Assembly: GCA_048537945.1 (NCBI GenBank)
Contig: CM108484.1
Coordinates: 4,210,494-4,274,493 of the forward strand
DNA from: Mnemiopsis leidyi
Taxonomy: Eukaryota
Reading direction: 5' to 3'
Length of the DNA stretch: 64,000 nucleotides
The position numbers and the translations under genes were made by a program. Positions 10,090 through 64,000 of this stretch are shown here, in pieces (position 1 is the first letter of the stretch; every line of letters begins with the position of its first letter). A model generated the notes under the pieces. That model saw nothing but the letters and a program-made list of their open reading frames with translations. It made no database searches and was not told the DNA's origin.

Positions 10090-10730
10090 TCGGATTGAAT
10101 TCCCTTACTTAAGGGGGAATTGTAAAAATTTAGCTAGACCAACGGACTGTACAGTAACCTAAAGCACCCTAATGGGCATCAATTGCACCACTTATTTTTT
10201 GATTCTATGATGACGCATTTTTTAAAATCGCAAAAAGAAAATTTTTCCGAGAATTTGGAAATTTTTGGAAATTTACATTGCATAAATAAAACTCAGCCGT
10301 TTCTAATTGAATCATGCTGAAAATTTGCACGAATTTTATTTATACCTTTGTTGAGCAGCTGTAAAAATTTCACGAAAAACTAATAAAAGTTGACTCAATG
10401 GCACCTGTCCAAAGTTGCCAAGTCCCAAAAATTTCTTTTTTATGTTAACTAACTTTGAAAATTTGCACATGCTACTGTGAAATGTCAAGCACCTTGAAAC
10501 TTTGCACACAGGTAGAAGACAGCGATGGAAAAATTTTGATGCTATGAAAAGTCTGTTTCCAAGGAAAGGGGGAAGATTTATGGACACTTGAAATAAAAGT
10601 AGGAATTTATCTGCCAAATTTCAACTTGAAAACAAAAAATTGTTAGAGCCACCCTTGAGTTGTCTAAATGCCAGATATAAGGTCACTCTTTACAAACATA
10701 CTTTATCCGACCCGGGTGTATTGGTTTTGG
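10090..10730. repeat. Left arm of ~640-bp inverted repeat flanking the LINE
   Basis: Reverse complement of 15535-16170 at ~90% identity. Mirror ORFs 10336..10617(-) and 15649..15930(+) encode near-identical peptides. Confidence 0.85.
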
Positions 10731-10849
10731 GCTTAAAATATGATATCAGATACATTTTAACTCTACCATATTTTGTCACTCTTGGACAACTATTGTTCTC
10801 TAGCACATACATCTTTCATTTTAGACTATTTAAGACCTCGGCAAACATG

Positions 10850-37887: not shown

Positions 37888-37981
37888 ATGAAGGGTGATA
37901 AGGGCATTGTGATATCGGGCCTTTCCGGCCGATTTCCAAACTCCAACAATGTGGATCAGTTCTGGGATAATTTGGTGGCAG
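37888..37981 (+). CDS. FASN: FAS exon 1 (start codon; KS N-terminus)
   Basis: [32 protein letters not shown] compares with human [29 protein letters not shown]. Donor G|gtacgt. Confidence 0.85.
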
Positions 37982-46900: not shown

Positions 46901-48902
46901 AGCGGAGGGACGTGGTTATAGTTGGAGCACGGAGGGGGGAGGGACGTGGTAATAGTTGGAAGATAGATGGAGGAAGGAGGTGGTAATAGTTGGAGGATAG
47001 AGGGGGAAGGACGTGGTAATAGTTGGAGGATGGAGGGGGAAGGACGTGGTCATAGTTGGAGGATGGAGGGGGAGGGACGTGGTAATAGTTGGAGGATAGA
47101 GGGGGTGGGAGGTGGTAATAGTTGGACGATAGAGGGGGTGGGAGGTGGTAATAGTTGAAAGACGGAGGGAGGAGGAACGTGGTAATAGTTGCAGGATGGA
47201 GGGTGGAAGGAGGTGGTTATAGTTGAAGGATGGAGGGGGCGTGGTAATAGTTGCAGGATGGAGGGGGACGGACGTGGTAATAGTTGGACGATGGAGGGAG
47301 GAAGGTGGTGTTATAGTTGGCGGATGGAGGGGGAAGGACGTGGTAATAGTTGGTGGATGGAGGGGGAAGGACGTGGTAATAGTTGGAGGATGGAGGGGGA
47401 AAGACGTGGTCATAGTTGGAGGATGGAGGGGGAGGGACGTGGTAATAGTTGGAGTATAGAGAGGGAGGGACGTGGTTATAGTTGGAGGATGGAGGGGGAG
47501 GGACGTGGTAATGGTTGGAGGATTGCGGGGAGGGAGGTGGTAATAGTTGGAAGATGGAAGCGGAGGGACGTGGTAATAGTTGGATGATGGATGGAGGAAG
47601 GAGGTGGTAATAGTTGGAGGATAGAGGGGGTGGGAGGTGGTAATAGTTGGAGCATGGAGGGGGAGGGACGTGGTACTAATAGTTGGAGGATAGATGGAGG
47701 AAGGAGGTGGTAATAGTTAGAGGATGGAAGGGGAAGGAAATGGTAATAGTTGGAGGATGGAGGAGGGGAGAGGTGGTTATAGTTGGAGGATGGAGGAGGA
47801 AGGAGGTGGTAATAGTTGGAGGATTGAGGGGAGGGACATGGTAATAGTTTGAGGATGGAAGGGCAGGGAAGTGGTAATAGTTGGAGCATGGAGGGAGGAA
47901 TGAGGTGGTAATAGTTGGAGCATGGAGGGAGGAATGAGGTGGTAATATTTGGAGGATGGAAGGTGAGGGACGTGGTAATAGCTGGAGGATGGAGGAGGAA
48001 GGAGGGGGTTATAGTTGGAGCATAGGGGAGGGAAGGAGGTGGTAATAATTTGAGGACTGAGGGGGTGGGAGGTGGTAATAGTTGGAGGATAGAGGATTAG
48101 AGGAGGTGGGAGGCGGTAATAGCTGGAGGATGGAGAGGGAAGAAGGTGATAATGGTTGGTGGATGGAGGGAGGAAGGAGGTGGTTATATTTAGAGGATGG
48201 AGGAGGAACTGAAGAAGGGAGCATGGAGTATGTGTGGAGGGAGTGTGATTAACCGGCTGGAGGTCAGGGCCCATGCTACCTAGCTAGATATCATGGATAT
48301 AAGGGATTAAGGGATGCTCATTTACAATACAACCTTTTCGCTTCGTCAAATTCGCTGGGTTGGCATAGATTTTCGTTTTTTTGTCTTGATTTGGGAGTTT
48401 TTGTTTTGTTTTTTGTGCTATTGTGTCTAGGAAGAAGTTGATACGAGACTCCTAAAAAGTTTTAAAGAACGGATAAACAAAAAAAATCGCGACACCAAAA
48501 TTGTTGGTTTGGTATTGGTTTACTGGTAAACGACCCCCATGAGTTTTTGCTACTCTTCAATAAAATTCTATTTTGTACCTTAATTTGACGGATAGGGTAA
48601 ACTGTCGGTAGTGTGAGTAGCCACCAAGCAGTTGATCCTGTCGTTTTTGTATGGGTAAAATCCACTTCTCCATTTATATCTCTGAGACAATTGGATGCTT
48701 TACTTTCAGCCGATTTAAACTCAACAGACCGATTTTGCTAAAGGCATTGATGAAGGTTAACGATTAGCGATTGAAATTAATTGCCATAGCAGTTAGAAAT
48801 GTTCGCTTTTTATTTGACCGGCTCACAGATTTACCTATGCTATATAAAAAATACAAATCGTAATGAAGTCAAAATTATCTTTCATACTATTATTATTAAC
48901 CT

Positions 48903-48934
<32 letters not shown>

Positions 48935-51900
48935 AAGGCACTGACCATGACCATGACACCCTGGAATTTGACTTTGGAAAATTAGGATTTTTTGGTCAAA
49001 ATTTTGACCATTTGACCAAAACCATGACACCCGGACGAAAGGCAAATGGTAAAAGAATCGTGGTCATCCGATCCCCCCCCCCCCCCGTTATCGTTCAAAG
49101 ATAATAAATGTGAAGAATGTTTTCAATTTTTCCATCGCTAATACTTTTTTGCCGAAGGCAAAAAAGTAAAGTAGATGGACAGATGGTTTAAAGTGGACGG
49201 ATTTTGGGGTGGGTCGTGGCTAGGTAGGTAGATAAATTTGGTGGATGTCGGCGTGACAGAGGCAACCATGTGTTAAACTCCGCAAGACGATAGTAACCAC
49301 GTTGGGGGCTGCTCCTACGTAAAGTAATTTGAATGACGTAAGGGATTATAGAAATTGTAAATGCGTGATGCGCGGCGCACACTGCACAGTATGTACAAGT
49401 TCAAAAGTCCATAGGTTTGTAATCGGTATGGCCGAATTTAGGTATGCTAAATCTGGTCGCAAAATAGAGGACAGCTATAAAATGGCGGGCATTAGTGGAA
49501 AGGCTGCCTTATAACATAGTAGGTTACTAGCAAAAATAGTGGGTAGCTAGCGAAAAATAGCGGAAAATCTATATTGGGGTTGTACAAGCTCTACGATTAA
49601 ACATTATGCCTAAGAAACGATTTAACGAATAATCACTACGAAAGATATGGCACCGGACAAGAATGGAAACGTATTTTATACGACAACAGGAAATAAGTCA
49701 GCAAGGAACGACGTAACACTAACTGCGTCCACGAAACTGTGTCGACCACGTTTATGATATGTAGAGTTTTGGTAACGCACAGCACTCAACAGAGTTCTTG
49801 ACACGATGTTGCCGCATTCTGCGGCCTGAGGCAGTTATAAAACCTATAATCGTAATCGTATACATAATTAAGTTTGATAAAGGAGCGTGCGCGCGGACGT
49901 ACGTACGTACGTACGGACACTTTTTGAGCTAATATTCCAAAATTACGCTGTCGATCGCCAACCCTTGTTTTGTACTTTTTGTGCACGTGCACAAAACGTA
50001 TCAAAACAATCTTGACTTAGTAGTTTGTAGCGTAAACTGTCGTTCAGGGTCCACAATCGCGCTTAGCAATATGTTAACCATTACTAGTCATGAGTCAAAC
50101 GCTATAGTTTTTAGTTAAATTCTCAGTTAGCCGTGACTGCTTTTAATTCATAACGGTATATATAAATAACTAGGTAATAGTTTACAATAACTGCAACAAG
50201 GAATGGAAGCTAAGGGGTTCCGTGCAATCTTTAGTGCAACCTTTACATTAATTCAGTAGTCCGGTGAGACGTACTGGTGGCGGTTCCTCCGCCCCGTTGC
50301 TCACATAACGACTAGCTTGTTATTAACATCTCGCATCGATTGAAGAGTACTGTGTTATCACATTTGAAACACAAAGAAATTTAATACACCGATGCAAAAG
50401 TATATATACTACTTCTGCACTTAAGATCTGGATATGTGCCTAGCCTGGCGAAGTTAGTGGAAATCCTTGCTGTACGGCATGTTAAACAAGGATTGTAAGC
50501 TAAGGGGTCCCGTGCAGTCCAATCTTTAGTGCAACCTTTACATTCGTACTGAATACATATCATCATTCATCACAGTATCTAGTTAAAGATGACTGCAACT
50601 TCATAGCGGTATTTAGTCTAAAAGAGAGATGGCGTCCGCCTGAGACCAAACTAAGCGGACGCAATTCTTGTTAAACTTTAACTAGGGATGGGCATTCAGG
50701 CGACTACTTACTCTTGTATTTAGTATTTATCATTGATAATAGCGGCTGCTATTCTTGTTAACGCTTTCGACAATGCAAATTTTCCTAAGAATTTTCCTAA
50801 GAATTAATTTGGTTCAACTTGAAAACTGTCTCACTTTCCGTGCTTTATTCCGTCGATAGCCCTCGAAGCTTCCACAAGTTTGTAATTACCCATGTAATTG
50901 TATGTTTCGCTTTGGGTTGCCGTGCCTTGGCGAGCAATGTTTTCTTGCAGAAAGTCGGCGTTGCTTTTCCCTGGACGGAGTTGTCATAAATATTCTTGAC
51001 AGGTTATTTGTCATGGAAATTTCAGAGCTAAGGCAATGTGGCAAAACCTTTCTCTTGTTGATAAGAGATATTGCATTTGTATTTGTATTTGTTATATCTG
51101 TTTTTCGACTGAGTCGACCGAAGAAGATTGCATAGGCAAATGATTGATGGATCTGGGTATCGAACCCCCTACCTTCTCGATAGGAATCCTATTAGGTAGA
51201 CGCCACTATATCCCCAGTGGGGATATAGTGGCGTCTACCTAATATGGGGTGGGGATTCCCCACCCCATATTGTCCTTACCTAGTAGGAGCAGGAAGAAAA
51301 GTATCGATAGAACCACCATCACAAGATCGTCTTTCTGTAACCTTAAGCTTTGTAGTCTTTTACATGGAAAGCTAGAAAATTGATATGATCAATGAGCAAA
51401 AAACAATAAATAGATGAAAATTAGCTTTCCATTAGACTCCTCAAAAAAATCCAAAATATGTTCTTCTTTGAAAATCCAATCTTATGTTCACTAAAACTCC
51501 GCTCTCCTACTTCCAATTTCCAAAGCGTTCTCTTAGAAACAGCTATGGTGACTCCCTGCAATGAAAAAGAAAATTTGTGCCATAAAAACTCCTAGCAGTG
51601 CCCTGTGCCATTTGAAACAGAAACACCAAATGTTAGTGGTCGAACAGGAAACTGGAATTTACATCACACTTCTCTCTCGCATCATACTCTCTTAAGTTTG
51701 TAAGTTGTCGCTCTAACTATCCACGTGTTGCCACCTGAGCAGTGGTTTGATAAGGAGGAAAAGTTCTAGTTCCATTTCATAATTGGTAGTTCCTTTTCAG
51801 ACTTAAATTTTACTGTTCGATCTGTGCAGCCTCGTACTGCCATCAATTAGATCAAGTAAACCGAAAAAGCTACTGAAGTACGTGTCACCTTGGCGACAGC

Positions 51901-54900
51901 AAGAAGCTAGGAAGTGGACAGGATATATGCGAGTCTACTTGTGGTGTGAGCTAAGCAGCTGATAATAAAACAGGTAAACCTAAATTCGCGTGACGAAACT
52001 CCTCCAGCTAAGGTTTAGAAGAAGCGGACAATTATATGGCGGGGCTGTAAAGTGTTCATCGTCGTGAACTACCCTTAAAATAGCACGTGTGTGAAATGGT
52101 ATGGTGGATAATGTGAATGAGCCGATAAATTGTTCCTGATTCAGTGATTTGCTGAAACTTCAATGAGCAGTTAGACGTTTGTTCTCCCCTCAACTGGAGT
52201 AGAGAGGCGCTCCATTAGCATTTAGCACTTCATGCTCGGTTAACCGGCTTAGTATTACATCATTGCTATAGATTGGAACATATAGGGGTTACAATGTTTG
52301 GCATTGCTATTGCTATGGGTGGTAAGGTATAGAAGATTATGATGTTTTACAATAGCTATTGCTATAGTTGGGTCGGTAAGACTAAGAATACGTTGAGGTT
52401 TGACTCAAAAGAGAAAGCCTGGGAACAAAGCCGAAAGTTATTGCATACAACAGAGATAACAGGCGGGTTGAAATTAAATTATCAAGTCTAATAAATTATT
52501 CGGGGCGATCGTTTGCGGCACCTACTCCACACAAGTAAGCAATGATTGGACTTCCGTCTTCCGATAGGGTGCAATTAATGTTTTAGTTAAACTTGAACGT
52601 TTTTATTCATCCTTTCAGCTGACGCCAATAATAGACGGAAGAGTGGTGCCAGTGACGTCACACTTAGAGTTAAGATCAGGGGATATCATCGGGATCAACT
52701 CATTCGGTTTTGGAGGAGCCAACGCACATGTCATTCTACAGGTAGGCTGAGTATATTGAATTTAGCATTTCATCCAAAAATCGATAGAGTTAGTGTTTTT
52801 TTGTGAACGCATCAGCTGAAATTTATTTCGATATCTGTGATTTTGCTGCTTTACTCAAGTTAAAAACTTGGACAAAGGGAACAAATAATATATTATAGTA
52901 TTCTCCATTATTAACATAAGAGCTAAGGTATCAGTTTTAACACTCCCTGACTGAGGACTACAAATATTCCCAGGGTGTATCCGGGGACGAGCCGAGACCT
53001 GTAAACTCTGAAATACCCATGTTGGTTCCGTACTACAACAGAAAAGCCGAGCAAACACAGTCGGCCTTGTGTCAGATACGAGATGAACATGTCACACATG
53101 ATAAACTCAGCTACCTTCACATGATAGCGCAAGTAAGGATACTTAATTAACTATATCATTTATCTATATCATTTATCTAAATGGTAGAGCTCTCTAGAAA
53201 TGTTTATTCAAGTGTGAATCTCACCTTTGAATCAGGATGTTCAGAAGGATTTTCAAACAAAAATACAGATGACCCTCCTGATCCATTATCATAGTAAACG
53301 TGATTATCATAGTAGAAATTAGGAATTTTCTATATTATGTATAAGACGATTAACCCGTTCGCCCCCGAGGTCGATATATATACCCGCTCTAGCGACTAAT
53401 ATTGTGCCATATCTATTTGTCATAGAATCAATTTCTTTAGTGAGTTCGCTTTTAAAAACTCAGTTCTATCCATGACAACACTCATTTTGAAAAAAGAAAT
53501 AGTTTTTTCGATAATTACATTAATTAATTAATAAAATAATTATTTAATTATTTTAAATTGCGCATAAATATTGCTCATGAACTAATTTCTCAAAATCATC
53601 TCGGGACCATGTACAGCGATGCTTTAGCAAATATGGAATCATGCAAACTGTTTGGTTGTGGATAAAATGTATCCACAATGAGTCGTTAAAGTGCGGGTAT
53701 ATATATCGACCTCGGGGGTTCGCCGGGGGAAGTCGAATTATTTTGAGGAAAAATCCATTTATATGCCATGGTAATCCGTTTTAGTGCAAATTTGATAGCT
53801 TGTTTCATTATTTAGGTTGTTTCCAACAAAAGTTTGTGGAAAAATTCTAACTATCCTTGCGACTTCTCAAGTAAAGTATAGCAGGTCGATAAATCGACCC
53901 TGGGATATGAGAGATGTGAATAGTCTAGACCATAATGTAAAAGTATTTGCAAGTTTAGCTACACGTGTGAAACTTATTAGAATTGCTTTTCAAGGTGTAT
54001 AGAACCGATGTTGACCAGTTAACAATCCACCTGGGGTGGGGAGGGTGCCCAAATGACCACACCCTATTGTGCATATCCCCGTCACGGCCCTCAATAATCC
54101 TGCTGAAATAAACATCGCAGCATACGGATCTGGCCTTATTCATGGCAAAGTGAAAGACCGTGTGACTCTCCATCAGCAAAGAAAAAGTTGGGAAAAGCTT
54201 GGTCTGGGATTTTGCAATGAGGTCACTCAATAATTAGAATGGGTCTCTTGCCGGCAAATATGGGTCTCTTGCCGGCCTAAAAACGGCCGATAGCCGGCTG
54301 ACATCAGGCCTGTAGCTGGCCTATATCAGACTGGCTATATAGGCCGTTTACAGGTCCGATATAGGCAGGCTATTGGCCATTAAAAGGCCTTTTATTGGCC
54401 TTATATGGGCCTTGTATCGCCCTTACAGGCCTTGTATTGGCCTTGCATCGGCCATTCGACCGACTAAAGGTCGGAACTAATCTCCCAATCTGCCCTTTTG
54501 CCAACTTGCAGAAATGCCTTGACAAAACAGATTCCAGCTACCGAACTTTCGGAACTGGGGAACTGTCGATGCAAAACAAGTTTACACCGTGCATAATGTG
54601 CATCAATTATAGTCCTGAATAGTTTTTGGCAAATCAAGCCTTCTTCTAGTCTCCTGGTAATCCTCAAAGCGTGATTAAAACCGTACTTTAGTATCATGTC
54701 CACAGAAACGTCCCATCTGTGACGGCAAATGCTAAATTATGTGATGTTTTATCCTTTCAAGTGTCTTCTGAGGATGTGAGAAGCACAAGGAAGCCTCGCA
54801 TCAAGAGCAATCGCTGTTTGTCATATTAGAATGAAAAAATATTAAGATACAGTTGTAAGAAAGTGAAAATAGCAAGGCAGAGTAGGTAGAGAGCTTTTAT

Positions 54901-57900
54901 GTTCACTTCTTAGTCCAATAAGAGGTTAATTCTATTTATTTCACAGGCAAATTGGCTTATATGACCAAATTTGTTATCTCACCTAGTGAAACTCCCGAGG
55001 TCGATATATCGACCTCCTCAGTATAACTGACCTCTTCTGTATAACTGAGGCACTAAAAACTAGAATTATTCTCCTTAATTGTTTTAAGATGTAAGGCCGT
55101 GTCATATGGGGCTTAAAAACTTTCATGAACAAGCAATTTTCGAAATTTTGAAAATAGATAAATTTTCCTGTTGAATCCCCGAGGTCGATATATCGACCTC
55201 GCGATATCTCGAAAACCAAAAGCATTGAGACAAAAACCTTTCATACTTTTCTTATTCGGGCCAATACAAGTTGATTTAGGGGGTAAATTTGAAAATTCAT
55301 TCTCGGGGGTGTAGGGGTTAAGGATGGTTTATAGTTAACATAAAAGAATGTCACTATAGAGGTGAGGTCTTTGATTAAGGTGCGAAAGAGAAAGTGAGGA
55401 AATATAAGAGTAGAAGAGTGGAATATAAAGCTGATCAATTGAGTCAACTTTCTTCTCACAATATGCTGAACAAATTGGTTTGGTTAAGAGAACTAAGAGT
55501 TTACCCTCACCAAGTGTCTGCATCCTCAAAGAACGGAGTTAACCCTCACCAAGTGTCTGTATCCTCAAAGAACGGAGTTTACCCTCACCAAGTGTCTGTA
55601 TCCAGGATACAGTATCCTCAAAGAACGGTAAAGCAAACCACAAACTCTCTCCGACTATGTTTGTCTATTACAGTGTTTAGGGAGAGCAACAGATCATAGA
55701 TCTTAGTGATCATATACGTTGTCCTTCCTGTTTAAGTAAAAGTTCAACCTTCTCACCAACAGTACTATTAAATCCTAAGTCCACGAAGACCTGTGTGTTC
55801 AAGGCCATGTTCTTGTTATAGCAAACGAGTAAATCGCTATCTTATGACTCCTAGTATTAGCTAGCTTTGATCTCGGGATCTTAAAGAAACAATATGGTTG
55901 GTTGGGAAGCACTGTCCTTGGGCATGTATTCTGTAAAAAGATGTTGCCCGATTTTCATTGTCTGATTTAACTAAGGATTTGCTAAATATGTAAATACCCA
56001 AGAAACCACTACAAAAAACAGTACAAAAATAGTCCGCGAAACACCTAGATTATTTCTCCGCGACCAATGAACATCCTAAAAGCGTCATTAACTTCAACCC
56101 TGGTTTTCGGCTCTAGACATTCCCGCCACTGCCCACTTTACAGAAACTTTCACACCCTGTTTTAGGATAGTTTATAGTTAACATAAAAGAATGTCACTAT
56201 AGAGGTGAGGTCTTTGATTAAGGTGCGAAAGAGAAAGTGAGGAAATAGAAGAGTGAAGAGTGGAATTTAAAGCTGATCAATTGAGTCAACTTTCTTCTCA
56301 CAATATGCTGAACAAATTGGTTTGGTTAAGAGAACTAACAGTTATCCCTTACCAAGTGTCTGTATCCTCAAAGAACGGAGTTTACCCTTACCAAGTGTCT
56401 GTATCCTCAAAGAACGGTTAAGCAAACCACAAACACTCTCCGACTATGTTTGTCTATTACAGTGTTAAGGGAGAGCAACAGATCATAGATCTTAGTGATC
56501 ATATACGTTGTCCTTCCTGTTTAAGAACAAGTTCAACGTTCTCACCAACAGTACTATTAAATCCTAAGTCCACGAAGACCTATGTGTTCAAGGCCATGTT
56601 CTTGTTATAGCAAACGAGTAAATCGCTATCTTATGACTCCTAGTATTAGCCGGCTTTGATCTCGGGATCTTAAAGAAACAATATGGTTGGTTGGGAAGCA
56701 CTGTCCTTGGGCATGTATTCTGTAAAAAGATGTTGCCCGATTTTCTTTGTCTGATTTAACTAAGGATTTGCTAAATATGTAAATACCCAAGAAACCAGCA
56801 CAAAAAACAGTACAAAAACGGTCCTCGACACACCTAGATTATTTCTCCGCGACCAATGAACATCCTAAAACCGTCATTAACTGCATCCCTGGTTCCCGGC
56901 TCTAGACATTCCCACCACTGCACTGCCCACTTGACAGAAACTTTCACACCCCCTTTATGTACCTCCCCCAACCCACCTGTGTGAGTCCTTCCTATTCCAT
57001 AACAAATTCTTCTCAGGGCTCAGCAGCAAGCAACGTAACACGAGGTTACGTAGTACTAAACGGAGTTAAAAGAGAACCTGTTGTGGCGGAGGCCAGTCCT
57101 CCTGCCGAGACGAGACCACTCTGGTTCGTCATGACTGGGATGGGCGCTCAGTGGCACGAGATGGGCAAGGACATGTTGAAATACGAGACTTTCAGACGGT
57201 AAGATATCGATTCTTTGAATGAGTGGACGCAAAAATAATAAAAGTTTGACGCAAAAGAAGATCTCTCCAACTTTCACTAAAACAATCCTGTCTTCCTCAG
57301 ATCGGTAGAGGAGTGTAGTCGAGCTCTATCCTCTGTACCAGAGTGTTCTATAGACGTCCTACACCTCCTTACATCTCGCTCGGCCGACCTTCACAGTGCC
57401 GAGAACGCCTTTGTGGGCCTCTGTGCGGTTCAGATAGGACTGGTTGATCTCCTCACAGAGTTTGGTCTGAGACCTGACGGTTTGGTGGGACACAGCGTGG
57501 GGGAGTTGGTTTGTGGGTATGCTGATGGATGTTTGGATATCAGGCAGACCATCTTATCCAGCTACTTTAGAGGTAGATTTATTTTCTAGAGAGATTGTAG
57601 TTTTTTTTCGTTAGTTCGCTATCTTATGAATCCTTTAAAAAACAACTTAACTGCTAAGCTAACGTCTACTTTTGATCTGATCACGTGATGAAAAATAACC
57701 ACTATAGAAACTATATAGAGACTACTACAGTATCCAGATAACTCACTCCCCCAGGAAAGTGTATAAAAGACGCGGGCCTGGAGGAGGGCGGTATGGCGGC
57801 TGTTGGTCTGACCTGGGAAGAAGCTTCCAATGTGTGCCCCTCAGGAGTAGTGCCTGCTTGTTACAATGCGGAGGTAAGTACTGAGATGTATAGTAGTAAT

Positions 57901-60900
57901 CGTAGTACTCGCAGTACACATAGTATGGTATTATAGTAGAACAAGCTCTAAGTTTCTTTACAGTGCTCGTAGCATAGTTGCATAGGAGGCTAGTTAGTTT
58001 GTTTTATTGAAGTTTGGGAAAGTGCCGTTTTTGTTTAAGACATAGTAAGTTTATTGAAATCTTTCAAACTTATTAATGCAAAGTTTCACAGTCGGCATAA
58101 CACCTGGATATTAAAATCTGTGATAGAAATTTCGTAAAAATAGTTCACAAGTAATTTATATGGATTGAAGCAAAATCAAATCTTTACAATTCAAAGTATG
58201 GAAAGAATGTCATCCGAACCACATGAATAGCCCACATAACTGCAGGATTCAGTAACAATCTCCGGTGACAAAGAGAAAGTTCTGGAACTAGTACAGAAGC
58301 TGACTGACGAAGGAGTGTTTGCCAAGGCGGTAAACTCGTGTGGAGTTGCCTTCCACTCACCCAGTCTCGCAACAGTTGGTCCTCAGCTGGAGGCCTGTTT
58401 GAAACCCATCATACCCTCACCTAAACTCAGATCGAAGGGTAAGTAAGCTTGAGAATTAGTTTTGTTTTTTGTGTTGATCAGGTTGTAGTGCTAGAAGGAC
58501 AGAAATTCCTGACTTGGATGTCGCAACAGATAAAGATATAAAAACTTGATGTTCATGTTAATGTTCCGATAAAGGATTTCTCTGATTTCGGATTGGACAT
58601 ATTTCCAGCAACTTCAAACATTTGACACAGAATGTAGAGCAGGATTATCAAATGAGTTTCTTGGAGTGACATAGTTGTTGCTGTCCACGCTCCTCAGCCT
58701 ATTCCTAACATTAACACTGGACACAGACCCAGGCTGGATGATAGGCTTACCTGGTTTCACCAGCCCGCCCATCACCCAGTCCCGGAAACTCTGCATCCGG
58801 CTGAAGTAGACTATCGGACTAAGATACGCGCTCAGAACAACAGTTTGTACAGCGGATATGTTCCAAGTGTAAAACATCATGAAAGTGTTCCGATAGCGAG
58901 GTGAACTGTTCTCCTTCATGTTGTCGTAGTCTGCTATCCAGAGTAACATGTTGATACACTGGGGCAGGTTACAAATCAGGAATATTCCTGTTACGATCAT
59001 GATTGTCACTGAGGCTTGTTTCTTAGTGGACTGTTGTCCGTTAGGGACCAAATCACTCTTTCTCAGTTTGTAGACCGAGCTGATGAAGCTGATGATGATA
59101 AGAAATGTCGGTAAACCAATCTCTATTTCGTACAGTTGATCGTCTATTTTCCCGTAAATCTGGTTAGGACCCAGATCTTCATAGCAAAACACATCATGGT
59201 CGTTATACACGTGTATTTGCTCCGATCGTAGGGCGGCGTTCTGTAGGATAATGAACAACAAGTACGCTCTGAAGGACCAAACTATAGCTTCCCTATACAG
59301 CACTGTAAACGGGAAACATATAGCAATAGCTCTAGACAAACTGAGCAACAAAACAAGGAATATCGCTGACACCTGAAGACCTCTAAACAGAATCCTCCAC
59401 CCGATACAGAAGTACTGGTTCCCAAACAAGACGGGCTCACGTGCACTCCACATAGATACCATGACGGGGAGGTGAGCTAGGCACGTGACCAGATCCACCA
59501 CACAGATACGGCGGTAGATCTGGGTGGGTATGTCCCGGCCTTTACAGAGGACACAGAAGTAGTAGAGAGAGATGATGTTAGCAGGAACCCCCAGGATGAG
59601 TCCTAGGAGGAGGTTGAGAGAGAGGATCTTGTCGAGGGTGAGCACCATGTCAGGGATCGGGGTAGTTGATACGTTCTCCATGGTGCAGATCTGTTAGGGG
59701 GCGGGGGTTATTTGAATATTTGAGTTGAGTTAGGTTAATGGTCACTGGAGAAGTTATCGTATTTGATTAATTTACGTGAAAGTAATATAGTGAGCATATT
59801 TGATTGAGATTTGTCATGCATTATTTAGTTACTGTCGGGCTTGTGAAAGGGTAAAATGTTGGAAGTATCGGAGTTGAGTTGATCAAAATTTAAAAGAATC
59901 GTGATTTATCGGAAATTGTCATTTTACGGTAATCAACAAATATATTTACGAACAGCAAATAATGAATGTATCGGATATTTTTTGGAACATCTATTTTTGA
60001 AGGGAACAGGTAATTTTTGAAAATGCCTTCACTTGGTAAATAAATGAAAATAATGAAATGAAACAATTTAGAAAATCGATACCCTCCAATATTTGCAATG
60101 AAATATAGAATAGCTAGACACAACGAGATTCTGGTTAGAAAGTTCACGTAAACTTCCAGACACTCTTTTATCGATAAGCTCAAAGAGGAGAACTCGCGAT
60201 GAAAACTTTTGATGGTCTGGAAGGAATTGAATTCCATTTAATTTGACTGAAATTCTAGCAACAAAGAGGTCCTTTAAGAAAAAATACCGAAGATGATTTG
60301 TCGTAATTAATGCTAGAAAAATTCTCTGGTTTCTTGTCTGGTAACTCCCAACGGTGAAGCTAAGAGAAAAGGGGCAAATAAAAGAACAGATTGAACAACG
60401 GAATGAAAAACCATGGGTTATCGGTTTTTCGAGAATCAAACTGATAAACATTTCCAGCTATATAGGAAGTTTAGACAAAAGATGGCCAAGAAAACTTTCG
60501 CTGTGCACTGCAACATTGAAAATGAAACACAAATTTGAATTAAGGAAATAAAGAATAAATTTTAAATCCGGGAAATTGGTAGATCACCGGCTACTAAACG
60601 ACTACAACTTTGATAGCCGGCTATAAGCCGGCATAAAGCCGGTCAGTAGCCGCTTCCATTGGTTGTTGAGCGACGGTCATAAGCCGGCCATAAGCCGTTT
60701 AGGTATCAAAATTGTGGTTATAAGCCGGCTGTAAGCCGGCCATAAGAAATTCATTCAATAACACGGTAATGAGCGATAGTCGGGGGCCGGCTATAAGAAA
60801 TTCTATGGAAACGGCCATTAGCCGGTTATAAGCCGGCTATAAGCCGTTAAGGTATTCAAAGTTGTTATAAGCCGGTTATAAGATATTGACTCAATATCAT

Positions 60901-63653
60901 GTTACTGAACGATAGTCAGCAGCCGGCAATACGAAATTCTTGGAAAACGGCTATTAGCCGGTTATAAGCCTAAGCCTAACCCTAACCCAGCTATGTTTTT
61001 AAATATCAGTACCAACATTCGCAAAATAGAACATGAAGTAGCACTCCGCTCATCAGATAATTACACGAACTTAACCTTGAATTTAACCCCACTAAAACGT
61101 AAAGGTCTCCCAAAAGTTAAGATTATCTTGGTTGATACAAACACAAAGCAAAGTGTGCTGACATAATGCCGTTATAGCATTATAACGAATTATTACAGGA
61201 TAAAGGTAACTAAACTGCCGGCATACAGAGCGTAGCTTAATGGGAAAGTTGTCTGTGAGGCTGCGGTCTTACTTCATGTTAAACAATCATGACGTTTAAC
61301 ATCAAACTCATATAGACAGCCAATACTTGGAGGTGAGGGCTAAGAAGCAAAAGTAAAACTACGGTTATAGCAAAGCCCGCAATAATAAACTGGGGTTCGC
61401 AGATTTTCCTACAACCTAAAATTGTAAAGTTGAAAATAAGCACTCGAAAATAAACCAATAAAAATGAGAGCTAAGGAAGATTTGATATCGCACTACATGT
61501 CTGCGGAACCCCACTCTACATCGTGCCAAAGTACCCAAATAAAACTCTAACTTGGTGATAATGTCAGGCGCCCTAATCATCCTTATATAAAATGATCTGG
61601 CCCCTATACCATTTTACCAACATACTTTCTATCAAAGCCATTGTAACGCACAAATCCCTATAAAGTTTGATGGTAGTGCTATATATACGAGGTCTAGTAC
61701 ATGTTATGATTTAAAGATAGCACGTAGTAACAAGACCCAACTGACCCCCTCTCTCTGTCCGATAATAAGCTCTATGTGCAGCTCTTGTCGCGGATCCTTT
61801 AGAAGTTGGTACCCCTAGAATGTAATTATAGTCGGAGGTCTAGACAAGGGTTACCGATCTGGCTTACTAAACGGTACCTCAGAATGTTGTACTGGCGAAC
61901 ATAGGTAGCTCTATTTGCCAGATATTTATCTGTTAATGTTACTATTTCTGTGGTGTTACCAGGAAACCTGTATCGGTGTACCGCAGGGAGCAAAATTAGT
62001 TAATTTTAGAGGTGAGCCAAGGTGACAACAGACGTTTACTGTTGCAACCCTGCAACTACGCATACTCGTTTGTGACAATTATCCTCTAGAAATAATATAA
62101 TAATAATTTCAAATTGTGCTGGTTAGCTTGGCTGCCAGACACTGAGCCTCAGTGACTAATACCAAATTCACAAGCAAGTTCGAATTGAATGGTACTCAGA
62201 AACTGGTTTAATGGCTGTGACGAATAGTCCGACAGCGTAACTTTTAACTAAAGGAAAACACATGGTACAGAACACTTTGTTTTAATCCTGCTGCATAATG
62301 CCGACAAGAAACATAATACAATCGGTTTTATCTGAGATAAGGGAATTGTGTTTGTAGCTGTGGACAGTGGTAAGGAAACCAAAAACAAAATTACACCAAC
62401 CTAGAAAAACAAGATAGCGCTAGGTTTTAAGTTTCAATAGTAATTGCTAGTTATTAAATAATGTCGTGTTTTGATTGTTGATTGATACACCCATACCTGC
62501 CTAAACGGTGTTTGTTTTGCTAAATGGTTAAATGGCTGATCAGGTCGAGTCTCAAGGAGGGGGTTATCTAATGCTATTTTGGTTAAAGGGAGGATCTCGG
62601 AATTTATAGCTGCCGACTGGATAAAACTCAAACTCTGGAAAACGTTAACAAAATAGAAAGTAGTCAAAGTGATTCTTTCCACATTAAGAGAGTAAATCAG
62701 ACTCTCAAAAAATGTTTATGGGCACGTGACGGATCACGTTTATTGGCATTGCCAATTGGCAATTGTTGGTTACATTCCCGATCTTAAAGACGGAATGAAT
62801 ATTTCTCTTAACTCATGTCGCAGAATTAACTTCGAAAAGTTAAACAAATTTCTGGTAAGGACTGTCAACAGTGAACAATGTCTTACTGACTTACTACGAA
62901 TGACAATAAAGACATTGCAATTTGAGAAAGCTCCAATTTTGCTGGAATAATTGCCAAATAAACCTTCCTTGATCTAAAGCTTTATGATCTCTTAACAGAT
63001 TCGACTTTTCAAAGAGCCGATCAGCTCAGCTTCGAACAGTTCGCATATTTATCTATAGTTTTTTTTTTTGATTCATTCATTTCAACTTCTTTGCAGATAT
63101 TTTATCGTTAGATAGTTAAAAATAAATAAGATTGAATATTGTTTGATGATGTTATGGTTTGCACTTTTCATTTTGAATAATATGTTAAATTTTGAACTTG
63201 ACAATTTTATAGTGTGATCATGTCCTACGCTTAAAGGATGAAACGTTACTTATACTTCATACTAACGAAATGGTATCACTTGTACTCAACTTAGTCATAA
63301 AATTTGTCATTCTATGCCGGTTTCCTCTAAATTATCTATAGTTGACATCATATACTTTCAAAATACCAGACATCACAACAATGTATGGACTTTCAATGGT
63401 GAGAAACAGTTGTAAACAGTTACCCTGGTAACTAACAGAAACTTGTTGTAAACAGTAACCATGGTAACTAACAGAAACTTGTTGTAAACAGTTACCATAG
63501 TAACTCACAGAAACTTTTTATAAACAGTTACCCTAGCAACTAACAGAAATTTATTGCAGGTTGGGTTTGTACCTCAAGGAGACAGACGGACTGGGATAAA
63601 GCTAAGTTCTGCGACGCGACATATCTCTCTAACAACCTAGTTAGCCCCGTTTG
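37888..63653 (+). CDS. FASN: Animal type-I fatty acid synthase gene (KS, linker and MAT domains within window; gene continues beyond 3' end)
   Basis: Twelve exons with consistent splice phases. Colinear with vertebrate FASN from Met1 through the MAT domain: FWDNL; DPQLR; DTACSSS KS active site; EAHGTGT; KSNIGH; [11 protein letters not shown]; GHSVGE MAT active site; AAVGL; VFAK...FHS; NNLVSPV. Confidence 0.9.
38243..38437 (+). CDS. FASN: FAS exon 2 (KS)
   Basis: [65 protein letters not shown]. Confidence 0.85.
38618..38976 (+). CDS. FASN: FAS exon 3 (KS active-site Cys)
   Basis: ...[14 protein letters not shown]...[25 protein letters not shown]...LLKPN...LSQDGSCK. Confidence 0.9.
39150..39274 (+). 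CDS. FASN: FAS exon 4 (KS)
   Basis: [42 protein letters not shown]. Confidence 0.85.
39522..39651 (+). CDS. FASN: FAS exon 5 (KS; ends HGTGTQ). Its 3' end is the first unit of the 27-bp minisatellite
   Basis: [43 protein letters not shown]. Donor CAG|gtactatag. Confidence 0.85.
39643..41910. repeat. 27-bp minisatellite (GGGACACAGGTACTATAGATTTACWGT)n, ~84 copies, with a ~621-624-bp higher-order repeat (>=3 HOR copies)
   Basis: Unit = last 9 nt of FAS exon 5 plus first 18 nt of intron 5. ORFs 39611..40222 and 40235..40816 are identical and a third matching block starts at 40910, which shows the HOR. The 771-aa minus-strand ORF (VSHSKSIVP)n is a repeat artifact. Confidence 0.95.
42022..42228 (+). 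CDS. FASN: FAS exon 6 (KS)
   Basis: [69 protein letters not shown]. Confidence 0.85.
42694..42922 (-). CDS. F-lectin domain 2 exon c
   Basis: [76 protein letters not shown]. Either a donor A|gtgagt or an in-frame stop at 42686. Confidence 0.6.
42694..50970 (-). CDS. Two-domain F-type lectin (fucolectin/FTP-domain) gene, antisense inside FAS intron 6; 6 exons seen, and flanking exons are likely
   Basis: Minus-strand exons (approx): 50835-50970 (a2), 48579-48681 (b2), ~45121-45360 (c2), 43459-43594 (a1), 43132-43228 (b1), 42694-42922 (c1). Each a-b-c triplet encodes one F-lectin domain (GTATQS...AIDGI / HT...AWWLLTLP...I.V.NR / ...[28 protein letters not shown]...IQIQGG...LSLAEVEV). Splice phases are compatible with c2 joining a1. 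Exon a2 begins in phase 1, so upstream exons exist. Confidence 0.6.
43132..43228 (-). CDS. F-lectin domain 2 exon b
   Basis: [32 protein letters not shown]. Donor ACG|gtaaga. Confidence 0.6.
43459..43594 (-). CDS. F-lectin domain 2 exon a
   Basis: (G)[45 protein letters not shown]. Confidence 0.6.
43697..43800. repeat. ~100-bp dispersed repeat R (copy 1)
   Basis: ctggtgaacctaatggaaatccttgctgtacggcatgttaaacaaggaatggagctaag...tccaatctttagtgcaaccttaacatt. Copies also at 50443-50545 and, partially, 50197-50250. Confidence 0.75.
44030..44320. repeat. ~57-bp tandem repeat x5 (aaaacacaatgtgtaagatggtgtggccatcaatacactgaactaagact)
   Basis: Five consecutive near-identical units. Confidence 0.85.
45121..45360 (-). 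CDS. F-lectin domain 1 exon c (coordinates +-2)
   Basis: [80 protein letters not shown]. Acceptor ctttcag and donor AAAG|gtgagt. Confidence 0.6.
45455..48250. repeat. GGAGG-rich 33-bp minisatellite (GGTAATAGTTGGAGGATGGAGGGGGAGGGACGT)n, ~85 units, with ~300-bp higher-order repeats
   Basis: Near-identical + strand ORFs 46205..46477 and 46505..46744 show the HOR. Minus-strand PTS-rich ORFs are compositional artifacts. It fills the intron between F-lectin exons b2 and c2. Confidence 0.9.
48579..48681 (-). CDS. F-lectin domain 1 exon b
   Basis: [34 protein letters not shown]. Donor AAG|gtacaa. Confidence 0.55.
48903..48933. repeat. Poly-G homopolymer (~31 G)
   Basis: Visible. Paired with a poly-C tract 140 bp downstream. 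Confidence 0.9.
49073..49086. repeat. Poly-C homopolymer (~14 C)
   Basis: Visible. Complementary to the poly-G tract. Confidence 0.9.
49893..49915. repeat. (ACGT)n self-complementary microsatellite
   Basis: gacgtacgtacgtacgtacggac. Confidence 0.8.
50197..50250. repeat. Repeat R partial copy
   Basis: Matches the 3' half of R. Confidence 0.6.
50443..50545. repeat. Repeat R copy 2
   Basis: ~90% identical to 43697-43800. Confidence 0.75.
50835..50970 (-). CDS. F-lectin domain 1 exon a
   Basis: (G)[45 protein letters not shown]. Acceptor tccag and donor AA|gtgaga. Confidence 0.6.
51192..51271. repeat. Two adjacent perfect palindromes (25+25 nt with 1-nt spacer, then 14+14 nt)
   Basis: ttaggtagacgccactatatcccca g tggggatatagtggcgtctacctaa followed by atatggggtgggga t tccccaccccatat. 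Confidence 0.9.
52619..52741 (+). CDS. FASN: FAS exon 7 (end of KS domain)
   Basis: [41 protein letters not shown]. Confidence 0.85.
53352..53720. mobile_element. MITE-like element (~370 bp) with ~26-34-bp terminal inverted repeats containing the palindrome GAGGTCGATATATATCGACCTC; AT-rich interior
   Basis: Left TIR cccgttcgcccccgaggtcgatatatatacccgc. Right TIR gcgggtatatatatcgacctcgggggttcgcc. Confidence 0.6.
54240..54470. repeat. GGCC-rich degenerate ~12-bp tandem repeat (ggccttgtattg-like)
   Basis: Low complexity with repeated GGCC/GCCGGC. Confidence 0.6.
54994..55200. repeat. Pair of 20-bp perfect palindromes CCCGAGGTCGATATATCGACCTC ~185 bp apart (MITE-related or solo TIRs)
   Basis: Same core as the MITE TIRs at 53352-53720. 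Confidence 0.55.
55322..56990. repeat. Tandem duplication of an ~835-bp unit (55322-56155 and 56160-56990) in FAS intron 7, each with internal 37-bp repeats (caagtgtctgtatcctcaaagaacggagtttaccctcac)
   Basis: Long near-identical blocks. ORFs in this region are repeat artifacts. Confidence 0.85.
57017..57198 (+). CDS. FASN: FAS exon 8 (KS-MAT linker / MAT start)
   Basis: [60 protein letters not shown]. Confidence 0.85.
57301..57572 (+). CDS. FASN: FAS exon 9 (MAT active site GHSVGE)
   Basis: ...[59 protein letters not shown]. Confidence 0.9.
57755..57873 (+). CDS. FASN: FAS exon 10 (MAT)
   Basis: [39 protein letters not shown]. Confidence 0.85.
58246..58438 (+). CDS. FASN: FAS exon 11 (MAT)
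   Basis: [64 protein letters not shown]. Confidence 0.85.
58614..59681 (-). CDS. Intronless class-A (rhodopsin-like) orphan GPCR, nested antisense in FAS intron 11
   Basis: 355-aa ORF with seven hydrophobic segments. Kozak gcaccATGG. SRA at the DRY position ([12 protein letters not shown]). TM6 FLICNLP (CWxP-like). TM7 SPIVY (NPxxY-like). Ser-rich C-tail. Confidence 0.75.
   Translation of the reverse strand: MENVSTTPIPDMVLTLDKILSLNLLLGLILGVPANIISLYYFCVLCKGRDIPTQIYRRICVVDLVTCLAHLPVMVSMWSAREPVLFGNQYFCIGWRILFRGLQVSAIFLVLLLSLSRAIAICFPFTVLYREAIVWSFRAYLLFIILQNAALRSEQIHVYNDHDVFCYEDLGPNQIYGKIDDQLYEIEIGLPTFLIIISFISSVYKLRKSDLVPNGQQSTKKQASVTIMIVTGIFLICNLPQCINMLLWIADYDNMKENSSPRYRNTFMMFYTWNISAVQTVVLSAYLSPIVYFSRMQSFRDWVMGGLVKPGKPIIQPGSVSSVNVRNRLRSVDSNNYVTPRNSFDNPALHSVSNV
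60560..60960. repeat. Cluster of ~10 short palindromic motifs (A)TAAGCCGGCTTAT(A)/GCCGGC with ~120-bp periodicity (x3)
   Basis: gccggctataagccggcataaagccgg..., ccggttataagccggctataagccg... recur. Confidence 0.7.
63404..63550. repeat. ~39-bp tandem repeat x4, each unit containing a 14-bp palindrome GTTACCATGGTAAC (variants)
   Basis: acagaaacttgttgtaaacagttaccatggtaactaac units. Confidence 0.8.
63560..63653 (+). CDS. FASN: FAS exon 12 (post-MAT)
   Basis: (G)[30 protein letters not shown] matches human [33 protein letters not shown]. Acceptor ttgcag and donor TG|gtgagt. Phase is continuous with exon 11. Confidence 0.75.
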
Positions 63654-64000
63654 GTGAGTTTACAGAATTCGCTATAGATACAATGTCAATATACCCTAGT
63701 TTGTGTACTTGACTGCTTGGGTAACATGGAATGTCGCACGCACAGAAGTGTAACATGAAATTGCAAATAAATGGGAAATTTCGTACCATTGAAAAAATAA
63801 CCTCTGAGTTGATAGAATTTGGATTAAAAAATTAGAAATAGTTTTTGTAAATAACACGAGACCAGGCGGTAGCCTTTAATGATACGATCATTAGTTCAAG
63901 TTAACAGAGTTATCAATTGCAATGAACATCTGTATACTTAATCCGTGACATCCGTAACAATGATAGCCTTCCTAATTAAAGTAATCTGTTCTAGAAACAC

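What the first reader, a model, noticed from the sequence alone, without database searches (positions are those of the whole stretch)
58614..59681. Intronless divergent class-A GPCR nested antisense in a FAS intron
A complete 355-aa 7TM ORF with a perfect Kozak start sits on the opposite strand inside FAS intron 11, 175 bp downstream of FAS exon 11. The canonical motifs are degenerate (SRA instead of DRY, SPxxY instead of NPxxY, CNLP in TM6). This suggests a lineage-specific orphan or chemosensory-type receptor rather than an aminergic or peptide receptor. Intronless GPCRs nested in host-gene introns are typical of retroposed or rapidly expanding chemoreceptor families.
Basis: partly seen in the sequence, partly recalled or inferred. 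Interest (0 to 1): 0.6.

Follow-up and report, generated by a model that had tools for sequence, protein, structure and literature searches.

The report
Conserved orphan GPCR nested in FAS intron
This is a real, selectively maintained rhodopsin-type receptor gene of the comb jelly Mnemiopsis leidyi that sits backwards inside an intron of the fatty acid synthase gene; it is one slowly evolving member of a large comb-jelly-only receptor family, so it is a sound but fairly ordinary finding.

Summary

It lies antisense between two fatty acid synthase (FAS) MAT-domain exons that are contiguous in the FAS protein. The host intron is the 12th by my count, not the 11th. The same nesting is seen in a second ctenophore lineage. 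Antisense adjacency to the same FAS exon is seen in a third lineage, and to a degraded copy of that exon in a fourth.

The gene is under strong purifying selection (dN/dS 0.05-0.11). It has a conserved upstream block and a one-to-one orthogroup reaching Pleurobrachia.

The "degenerate" motifs are not decay. [S/T]-R-[T/A] and C-N-x-P are the signature of a large family (799 clusters at E<=1e-10) whose named members are all ctenophore. Only SPxxY is specific to this orthogroup.

Its "fast-evolving chemoreceptor/retrogene, not peptide receptor" reading is not supported for this gene. Ligand and expression remain untested.

The parts
58614..59681 (-). Single-exon coding sequence of a 355-aa class A (rhodopsin-like) orphan GPCR, identical to KAL5255943.1 of Mnemiopsis leidyi
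59682..60317 (-). Conserved upstream block, a candidate promoter/5'UTR of the nested gene. Motifs shared by three lineages include ACTAAATAATGCATGACAAAT about 150 nt before the ATG and GATTTTCTAAATTGT further upstream.
   Evidence: Aligns with the L003 orthologous locus (part of the 77.5% HSP that also spans the ORF; 74% over window 59797-60317) although synonymous sites are near saturation (pS 0.59). Short blocks are also shared with L002. Function is inferred, not shown.
58438..58613 (-). 176-nt spacer between the GPCR stop codon and the donor site of the preceding FAS exon. It is the 3' flank of the GPCR and the 5' end of the FAS intron.
   Evidence: Not conserved between lineages apart from the FAS donor site. 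It has no AATAAA/ATTAAA; the first lies beyond the FAS exon in all three species, but this is not significant against chance density.
58243..58437 (+). FAS coding exon (MAT domain; 12th conserved coding block) immediately preceding the host intron
   Evidence: Followed by a GTAAGT donor.
58438..63559 (+). FAS intron of about 5.1 kb that hosts the GPCR gene on the opposite strand
   Evidence: The flanking exon peptides are contiguous in the alignment to mouse FAS 555-743. The same intron hosts the orthologue in L003.
63560..63654 (+). Next FAS coding exon (…[30 protein letters not shown]). The exact acceptor position is approximate.
   Evidence: 92% aa identity to L003 5325-5435.
61559..62100 (.). 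Largest of several further conserved non-coding blocks in the host intron (others at 61137-61285 and 62294-62444). Role unknown: possible enhancer or untranslated exon of the GPCR.
   Evidence: 74% identity over 585 nt to L003, and unique within the window. No Rfam family at gathering threshold.

Best explanation
What it is. The ORF is a functional, single-coding-exon gene for an orphan class A (rhodopsin-like) G-protein-coupled receptor of the ctenophore Mnemiopsis leidyi. It belongs to a large GPCR family whose named members are all from ctenophores. In this family the DRY motif is [S/T]-R-[T/A] and the CWxP motif is C-N-x-P. Within the family it is a slowly evolving, single-copy orthologue found in lobate ctenophores, with a probable orthologue in Pleurobrachia.

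Likely mechanism (inferred):
- The receptor is inserted N-out, with N3 glycosylated.
- It binds a diffusible endogenous ligand in a pocket capped by a conserved, strongly acidic ECL2 beta-hairpin. The ligand is most likely a peptide, possibly basic. A small acidic or lipid metabolite is less likely.
- It signals through the retained core (N1.50, D2.50, R3.50, P5.50, F6.44, P6.50, P7.50, Y7.53) to a heterotrimeric G protein.
- It is held at a membrane domain by a conserved C-terminal S/T-x-V PDZ ligand.

Genomic setting. The gene is probably transcribed from its own conserved promoter region inside the FAS intron. The nesting is ancient. It is most simply explained as a passive arrangement locked in by the host gene, because no rearrangement can separate the two genes without breaking FAS. 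A regulatory link is not needed to explain it.

Shown: ORF, fold, family, selection, nesting and its conservation. Inferred: ligand class, G-protein coupling, PDZ binding, own promoter.
For: - ORF and start context.
- Pfam 7tm_1 at 36 bits against 30.5.
- Identity to KAL5255943.1.
- Selection: dN/dS is 0.052 against L003 (dS 1.14) and about 0.11 against L002. Within the genus, the ORF is 1.7% divergent (14 synonymous and 4 non-synonymous nucleotide changes; 3 conservative amino-acid changes) while flanks are 2.4-4.0% divergent.
- Nesting: FAS exons flanking the ORF are contiguous in mouse FAS. The same intron is used in L003, and the same adjacent exon is present in L002.
- Upstream blocks conserved in three lineages.
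- Family size: 799 50%-identity clusters at E<=1e-10. All 10 named relatives looked up are Pleurobrachia (8), Bolinopsis (1) or Mnemiopsis (1).
- Family-wide motif statistics.
- Orthogroup with shared [S/G]PxxY and C-terminal S/T-x-V.
- Family profile against PDB sequences: PAR2 1.5e-25, GPR183, GPR17, HCAR3, KOR, NTSR1, CysLT, P2Y.
- ECL2 has 5 acidic and 1 basic residue; there is an N-glycosylation sequon at N3.
- Literature: ctenophore GPCR clades radiated independently and have many-to-many relationships with other animals' GPCRs (PMC13231562). 538 full-length GPCRs were used for peptide-receptor prediction in M. leidyi, none validated (PMC9525235).
Against: - No transcript, expression or ligand data were available here. 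The only extra Mnemiopsis contigs found (L001, L005) are genomic.
- Several canonical activation microswitches are absent. D/E3.49, Y3.51 and W6.48 are missing family-wide. N7.49 is missing in this orthogroup. Position 5.58 appears to be Phe. Atypical signalling, constitutive activity or arrestin bias cannot be excluded.
- Similarity to any deorphanised receptor is only 11-19%, so the ligand class is weakly constrained.
- In L002 the downstream FAS exons were not found within 10 kb, so full nesting is shown in only two lineages.
- In the low-coverage contig L006 the neighbouring FAS exon looks degraded.
Confidence: 0.8

Rival explanations
1. It is a chemosensory-type receptor, the first reader's view: a member of a rapidly expanding, lineage-specific chemoreceptor family that detects environmental or prey chemicals.
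For: The family is very large, its named members are all ctenophore, and its coding regions are mostly intronless. Many full-length relatives were called as uninterrupted ORFs on metagenome contigs. Ctenophore GPCRs show copy-number variation and selection signals linked to sensing (PMC13231562).
Against: This particular gene is single-copy. It is one-to-one orthologous across lobates, with a probable orthologue in Pleurobrachia. It has dN/dS 0.05-0.11. It is about as conserved as the FAS MAT exons next to it: 89% against 90-100% with L003, and 66% against 76-90% with L002. It is not in a tandem array. Its ECL2 is strongly conserved.
Confidence: 0.12
2. It is a retrogene. A processed mRNA of a family member inserted into the FAS intron, which would explain both the intronless state and the nesting.
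For: The CDS is uninterrupted. A paralogue (P0006 in L004) carries a GT..AG phase-2 intron in ICL1, so at least some family members have introns. There is a short A-rich stretch about 150 nt after the stop in all three lineages.
Against: Most family members appear to be intronless, so an intronless state is not diagnostic. No poly(A) tail or target-site duplication is recognisable. The A-rich stretch reads as the U-rich start of the FAS intron on the other strand. The gene has a conserved upstream region of its own. The event, if any, predates the divergence of lineages whose synonymous sites are saturated, so it is not a recent retroposition.
Confidence: 0.2
3. It is an atypical, non-canonical receptor (decoy, constitutively active or arrestin-biased) because the D/ERY acid, the W6.48 toggle and N7.49 are all missing.
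For: SRA, CNLP and SPIVY are at the three microswitch positions. Loss of N7.49 is specific to this orthogroup: only 6 of 152 sequences have Ser there. From my own knowledge, loss of the 3.49 acid often raises basal activity and altered DRY motifs occur in atypical chemokine receptors.
Against: R3.50 is invariant in 152/152. N1.50, D2.50, P6.50, P7.50 and Y7.53 are each conserved in at least 87% of the 152 sequences, and in more than 95% of those with a residue at that position. A family of hundreds of genes keeping one fixed variant signature suggests a working alternative switch rather than loss of signalling. Strong purifying selection acts over the whole 7TM core.
Confidence: 0.15
4. The ORF is a chance ORF or a pseudogene inside the intron.
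For: None beyond the lack of transcript data here.
Against: Intact full-length orthologous ORFs exist in at least four further lineages. dN/dS is 0.05. There is a Pfam hit and a confident 7TM model.
Confidence: 0.01

Closest known systems
Class A (rhodopsin-like) GPCRs, Pfam PF00001 7tm_1
   Same: Passes the Pfam gathering score. Has the 7TM fold with helix 8. Keeps N1.50, D2.50, the C3.25-ECL2 cysteine pair, R3.50, P5.50, P6.50, P7.50 and Y7.53.
   Different: [S/T]R[T/A] instead of D/ERY. N instead of W/F at 6.48. S instead of N at 7.49 (orthogroup only). The Pfam match stops before TM7's NPxxY (profile 7-250 of 260).
PAR / P2Y / GPR17 / GPR183 / HCAR / CysLT cluster and peptide receptors (opioid, somatostatin, neurotensin, orexin, C3a/C5a, chemokine)
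   Same: These are the best profile-to-sequence matches: PAR2 1.5e-25, GPR183 3e-23, GPR17 1e-21, HCAR3 7e-18. For the single sequence the best are HCAR1, GPR68 and GPR4. They are also the best fold matches. The ECL2 beta-hairpin is shared.
Ctenophore-specific GPCR radiations, e.g. Bolinopsis microptera XP_063691518.1 (auto-named 'mas-related GPCR member A7-like'), Pleurobrachia bachei EP00116 models and M. leidyi ACHWQZ_G000218
   Same: Same family by profile: E from 1e-37 down to 1e-101 among the top 150 representatives, and 1.4e-69 for ACHWQZ_G000218. They share the [S/T]R[T/A] and CNxP signatures. The literature describes such clades as independently radiated and orphan (PMC13231562).
   Different: This gene is a conserved single-copy orthologue with S7.49 and a C-terminal S/T-x-V, nested in FAS. 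The MRGPR-like name is an automatic label; MRGPRs are not among the 60 best profile hits listed for the PDB.
Classical nested genes in host-gene introns (from my own knowledge: OMG/EVI2A/EVI2B in NF1, F8A in F8; intronless GPR21 and GPR52 in RABGAP1 and RABGAP1L introns)
   Same: A small, single-coding-exon gene on the opposite strand inside an intron of a large housekeeping gene, with the arrangement conserved across species.
   Different: The host is FAS and the lineage is Ctenophora. I found no published description of this pair in the library searched. The comparison rests on recall, not on a test here.

Membership tests
Class A rhodopsin-like GPCR (Pfam 7tm_1) | Profile match above the curated gathering score | tested here: met
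   36.0 bits against 30.5, E=6.8e-9, residues 40-276. Paralogues P0006 and P0173 also pass. P0024 is below the cut-off at 21.5 bits.
Class A rhodopsin-like GPCR (Pfam 7tm_1) | Seven transmembrane helices with an extracellular N-terminus, plus helix 8 | tested here: met
Class A rhodopsin-like GPCR (Pfam 7tm_1) | Conserved landmarks N1.50, D2.50, the C3.25-ECL2 cysteine pair, R3.50, P6.50, P7.50 and Y7.53 | tested here: met
   All are present in the window protein. Across 152 family members each is conserved in 87-100% of sequences (R3.50 in 152/152).
Class A rhodopsin-like GPCR (Pfam 7tm_1) | Canonical microswitch residues D/E3.49, W6.48 and N7.49 | tested here: not met
   S116 (3.49), N238 (6.48) and S288 (7.49). 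The first two replacements are family-wide; the third is specific to the orthogroup. These residues are typical of the class rather than strictly required by it.
Fast-evolving chemoreceptor-type GPCR family | Lineage-specific expansion | tested here: met
   1,324, 799 and 239 clusters at E<=1e-3, 1e-10 and 1e-30. Named members are all ctenophore. This holds at family level only.
Fast-evolving chemoreceptor-type GPCR family | Rapid sequence evolution or relaxed constraint of the gene itself | tested here: not met
   dN/dS is 0.052 and about 0.11. There are 3 conservative amino-acid differences against a 96%-identical Mnemiopsis lineage.
Fast-evolving chemoreceptor-type GPCR family | Tandem arrays of paralogues | tested here: not met
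   There is only one family member in the 64-kb window and in each roughly 21-kb homologue locus.
Fast-evolving chemoreceptor-type GPCR family | Expression in chemosensory cells and response to exogenous chemicals | not testable with these tools
   No expression or pharmacology data were available.
Nested (intronic, antisense) gene | Lies wholly between two exons of a host gene on the other strand, and those exons are adjacent in the host protein | tested here: met
   The FAS exons at 58243-58437 and about 63560-63654 align contiguously to mouse FAS 555-743. The same holds in L003.
Retrogene | Intronless copy of an intron-bearing parent, with poly(A) remnant and target-site duplications | tested here: inconclusive
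   The CDS is intronless and one paralogue has an ICL1 intron. However, most relatives are also uninterrupted ORFs. No clear poly(A) remnant or target-site duplication is visible.
Mas-related GPCRs (the name NCBI gives a Bolinopsis relative) | Closest similarity to MRGPR sequences or structures | tested here: not met

The most novel reading that the evidence does not exclude
The nesting could be functional rather than passive. On this reading the receptor senses a lipid or hydroxy-carboxylic-acid-type metabolite; its nearest single-sequence and profile matches include HCAR1/3, GPR183, CysLT and GPR17. Its antisense transcription would then run through the adjacent FAS exon, since no canonical poly(A) signal lies before that exon in three lineages. 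That would couple lipid sensing to fatty-acid synthesis in cis, and would explain why the pair has stayed together since before the lobate-cydippid split.
Probability: 0.04. Interest if true: 0.75.

Novelty: new member of a known kind. Interest (0 to 1): 0.3.

Why it matters
Ctenophores are a key lineage for the origin of nervous systems. Their several hundred GPCRs are essentially all orphan and lack one-to-one relatives in other animals (PMC13231562, PMC9525235).

A slowly evolving, single-copy receptor conserved from Mnemiopsis to (probably) Pleurobrachia is a better candidate for deorphanisation with ctenophore peptides than the fast-turnover members of the family. It has a recognisable family signature ([S/T]R[T/A], CNxP), an acidic ECL2 and a conserved PDZ-type tail.

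N at 6.48 together with no acid at 3.49, across hundreds of receptors, is a natural experiment on how class A activation switches can be rebuilt.

The conserved FAS nesting is a handy synteny marker. It also shows that intronic genes can be missed or truncated by automated gene callers: the L003 orthologue was called as a 252-aa fragment.

None of this overturns current views. It is a solid annotation-level result.

Tried and rejected
- AF2 with only the six close homologues gave an unusable model (pLDDT 49.9). It was replaced by the 80-sequence run.
- The word-indexed homology search with the 80-sequence profile returned only 15 proteins because of its candidate cap. Family size therefore rests on the exhaustive representative search.
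- The last homology search, aimed at retrieving the annotated M. leidyi FAS, returned only MAT-domain fragments from other animals. FAS exons were mapped instead from conserved ORFs of L002 and L003.
- The afdb50 fold library was unavailable.
- The pyrimidine-rich CCCCCGCCCCCTAACAG tract just before the ATG looked like a 3' splice or trans-splice acceptor. It is absent from L003 and L002, so I dropped the idea of a conserved 5'UTR intron.
- There is no AATAAA/ATTAAA between the stop codon and the FAS exon in three lineages. This is not significant given one site per roughly 690 nt per strand. It is kept only as a lead.
- The Logan contig L005, which I hoped was a transcript, is colinear genomic DNA.
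- A search of the supplements of PMC9525235 for the peptide sequence, to get an ML gene ID and expression, found nothing.
- Rfam found nothing in the window at gathering thresholds.
- L004 (P0006, 39% identity) is a paralogue next to a vinculin-like gene, not in FAS.
- L006 gave an ambiguous, possibly degraded FAS exon. I did not count it as support for full nesting.
- The F-type-lectin reading of the second nested gene was not confirmed by Pfam.
Full report
**1. The observation**

The start codon sits in ACCATGG. The claimed motifs are there: SRA at the cytoplasmic end of TM3, CNLP in TM6 and SPIVY in TM7. The protein matches Pfam 7tm_1 above the curated threshold (36.0 against 30.5 bits, E=6.8e-9). 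It weakly matches solved class A receptors on its own: HCAR1 at 1.4e-4, then GPR68, GPR4, CysLT2 and B2. It is 100% identical to GenBank KAL5255943.1, 'hypothetical protein ACHWQZ_G011230 [Mnemiopsis leidyi]'. So the window is ctenophore DNA, and the gene is already annotated but unnamed.

**2. The host gene and the nesting**

- On the + strand, conserved coding blocks begin at 37876 with a FAS N-terminus (…[11 protein letters not shown]…). They run through the KS and linker regions to the MAT domain. A Ketoacyl-synt_C hit confirms the exon near 42 kb.
- The block at 58243-58437 ends at a GTAAGT donor 176 nt from the GPCR stop codon. The next block is at about 63560-63654.
- The concatenated peptides align to mouse, human and pig FAS at E about 1e-55 to 1e-59. 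The alignment runs straight across the junction (…PKLRSK|GWVCTS… against …PRPRSA|RWLSTS…, mouse residues 555-743).
- The GPCR gene is therefore nested antisense in a FAS intron of about 5.1 kb. By my count of conserved coding blocks this is the 12th intron, not the 11th. Transcripts would be needed to fix the numbering.

**3. It is a real gene under constraint**

The word-indexed search found five homologues at 39-88% identity, all 7tm_1.

*Genomic context of the homologues*
- L003 (89% identity): an intact ORF of about 361 aa at 9674-10759. It lies between the same two FAS exons on the other strand, exon d at 11118→10933 and exon e at 5417→5328. The metagenome gene caller had truncated it to 252 aa.
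- L002 (66% identity): the ORF ends 75 nt from the same FAS exon, and upstream FAS exons are intact. The downstream FAS exons are not within the 10 kb available.
- L006 (the P0002 lineage, 65% identity): an exon-d-like piece lies 161 nt beyond the stop. It carries an in-frame stop on a low-coverage contig, so it is ambiguous.
- L004 (39% identity): a paralogue beside a vinculin-like gene. It has a GT..AG intron in ICL1.

*Selection*
- Nei-Gojobori estimates give dN=0.059, dS=1.14 and dN/dS=0.05 for Mnemiopsis against L003. For Mnemiopsis against L002 they give dN=0.26 with saturated dS and a ratio of about 0.11.
- Against a 96%-identical Mnemiopsis genomic contig (L005), the ORF differs at 1.7% of sites: 14 synonymous and 4 non-synonymous nucleotide changes, giving 3 conservative replacements. 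The flanks differ at 2.4-4.0%.
- The receptor is about as conserved as the adjoining FAS MAT exons. With L003 it is 89% against 90-100%. With L002 it is 66% against 76-90%.

*Flanking sequence*
- About 630 nt upstream of the ATG aligns to L003 (the 77.5% HSP spans the ORF plus this block; the upstream part alone is 74% over window 59797-60317), despite near-saturated synonymous sites. Short motifs, such as ACTAAATAATGCATGACAAAT, are shared even with L002. I read this as the gene's own promoter/5'UTR; that is an inference.
- The 176-nt 3' spacer is not conserved.

**4. Structure**

**5. The family**

- An exhaustive profile search of 1.84 billion representatives found 1,324 proteins at E<=1e-3, 799 at E<=1e-10 and 239 at E<=1e-30. 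This is a large and well-delimited family, not the general class A pool.
- Every relative that carries a name is from a ctenophore. Eight are Pleurobrachia bachei models. One is Bolinopsis microptera XP_063691518.1, auto-named 'mas-related GPCR member A7-like'. One is M. leidyi ACHWQZ_G000218.
- Many relatives are full-length uninterrupted ORFs on metagenome contigs. I infer that single-exon coding regions are the rule in the family.

Motif states in an alignment of 152 members:

| Position | State in the family |
|---|---|
| 3.49 | T or S in 135/152 |
| R3.50 | invariant, 152/152 |
| 3.51 | T or A in 127/152 |
| 6.47-6.50 | C-N-x-P, with N in 139/152 |
| 7.49 | N in 136/152 |

Only S7.49 is special. 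It is shared by the small clade P0001, P0004, P0005 and the Pleurobrachia protein P0024, with G in P0002. This clade is the orthogroup of the window gene in a neighbour-joining tree. All its members, including the L003 orthologue, also end in S/T-x-V (SNV, STV, SPV, TSV, SVV) although the rest of the tail diverges. Among all 152 sequences only 27 end this way. I interpret this as a conserved class I PDZ-binding motif; that is an inference.

The family profile matches solved receptors best in the PAR2 (1.5e-25), GPR183, GPR17, HCAR3, kappa-opioid, NTSR1, CysLT, P2Y and apelin group.

**6. Interpretation**

*Best-supported reading.* This is a functional orphan class A GPCR. It is a conserved single-copy member of a large family known so far only from ctenophores, and it was locked long ago into a FAS intron. 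The retained core (N1.50, D2.50, R3.50, P5.50, F6.44, P6.50, P7.50, Y7.53) argues for a signalling receptor with an alternative microswitch set rather than a dead one. The conserved, acidic ECL2 hairpin (YCYEDLG…GKIDDQLYE) and the profile and fold affinities make a peptide the most likely ligand class, possibly a basic one. A small acidic or lipid metabolite is the runner-up. This step is inference.

It remains a fair description of the family's style of evolution. Published work already notes independently radiated, orphan ctenophore GPCR clades (PMC13231562). It also reports 538 full-length GPCRs in M. leidyi, none with a validated ligand (PMC9525235).

*On the nesting.* An ancient retroposition origin can be neither shown nor excluded. 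Conservation of the nesting is most economically explained by the host gene acting as a lock. A regulatory link to FAS is possible, for example antisense read-through of the adjacent exon, but there is no evidence for it here.

**7. Verdict**

- Novelty: a new member of a known kind. It is an annotated but uncharacterised receptor whose family signature and conserved FAS nesting I did not find described in the library searched.
- Interest is modest at 0.3.

Noticed in passing
window 42689-50971, minus strand: A second antisense gene appears to be nested in FAS, in the 10.4-kb intron between exons 42019-42231 and 52616-52744. It is a duplicated three-exon module: 43607-43410 / 43242-43036 / 42940-42689, and 50971-50822 / 48668-48465 / 45381-45115. 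The two copies are 52-76% identical at protein level. By eye it resembles an F-type lectin domain (ATQ…[15 protein letters not shown]), but Pfam gives no hit. It is absent from the L002 and L003 flanks; in L002 this intron is only about 175 nt.
   Followed up: partly
window 39643-41912: A 27-nt tandem repeat with 84 copies at 94% match. It begins at the 3' end of FAS coding exon 5 (39523-39654), runs through that intron and gives a spurious 771-aa ORF.
   Followed up: partly
window 45461-48207: A G-rich 33-nt tandem repeat (267-nt higher order) with about 82 copies. GC skew is +0.89 and GC content 53%. It lies between exons of the lectin-like nested gene and produces several long spurious ORFs on both strands.
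   Followed up: partly
window 61559-62100, 61137-61285, 62294-62444: Conserved non-coding blocks in the GPCR-hosting FAS intron, 69-74% identical to L003 although synonymous sites are near saturation. They are unique in the window, have no Rfam match and show no convincing ORF. They could be enhancers or untranslated exons.
   Followed up: partly
window ~55390-56000 and ~56260-56800: A segment of several hundred bases is duplicated in direct orientation inside the FAS intron between exons 52944-53135 and 57014-57199. The ORF translations repeat, and the end of contig L005 matches both copies.
   Followed up: no
L006 1432-1536 (minus strand): In the P0002 lineage the FAS exon next to the intact GPCR carries an in-frame stop (VTIS*DKQK). 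It loses similarity after 35 codons, and no other MAT exons are found in the 2.6 kb beyond it. This could be a decayed FAS copy, a moved intron or low-coverage error at 2.7x.
   Followed up: partly
L004 9700-10000: The 39%-identical paralogue P0006 has a GT..AG phase-2 intron of about 195 nt in ICL1. The metagenome gene caller therefore missed its TM1 exon. So not all family members are intronless.
   Followed up: yes
L003 9674-10759: The 89%-identical orthologue is an intact ORF of about 361 aa, but it is recorded in the protein collection only as a 252-aa fragment (P0003) because an internal Met was chosen as the start. A cluster member of 388 aa (P0015) also exists.
   Followed up: yes
window 1-37800: FAS starts only at about 37.88 kb (N-terminal exon 37876-38004). 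The first 37 kb of the window must therefore hold other genes, which I did not examine.
   Followed up: no
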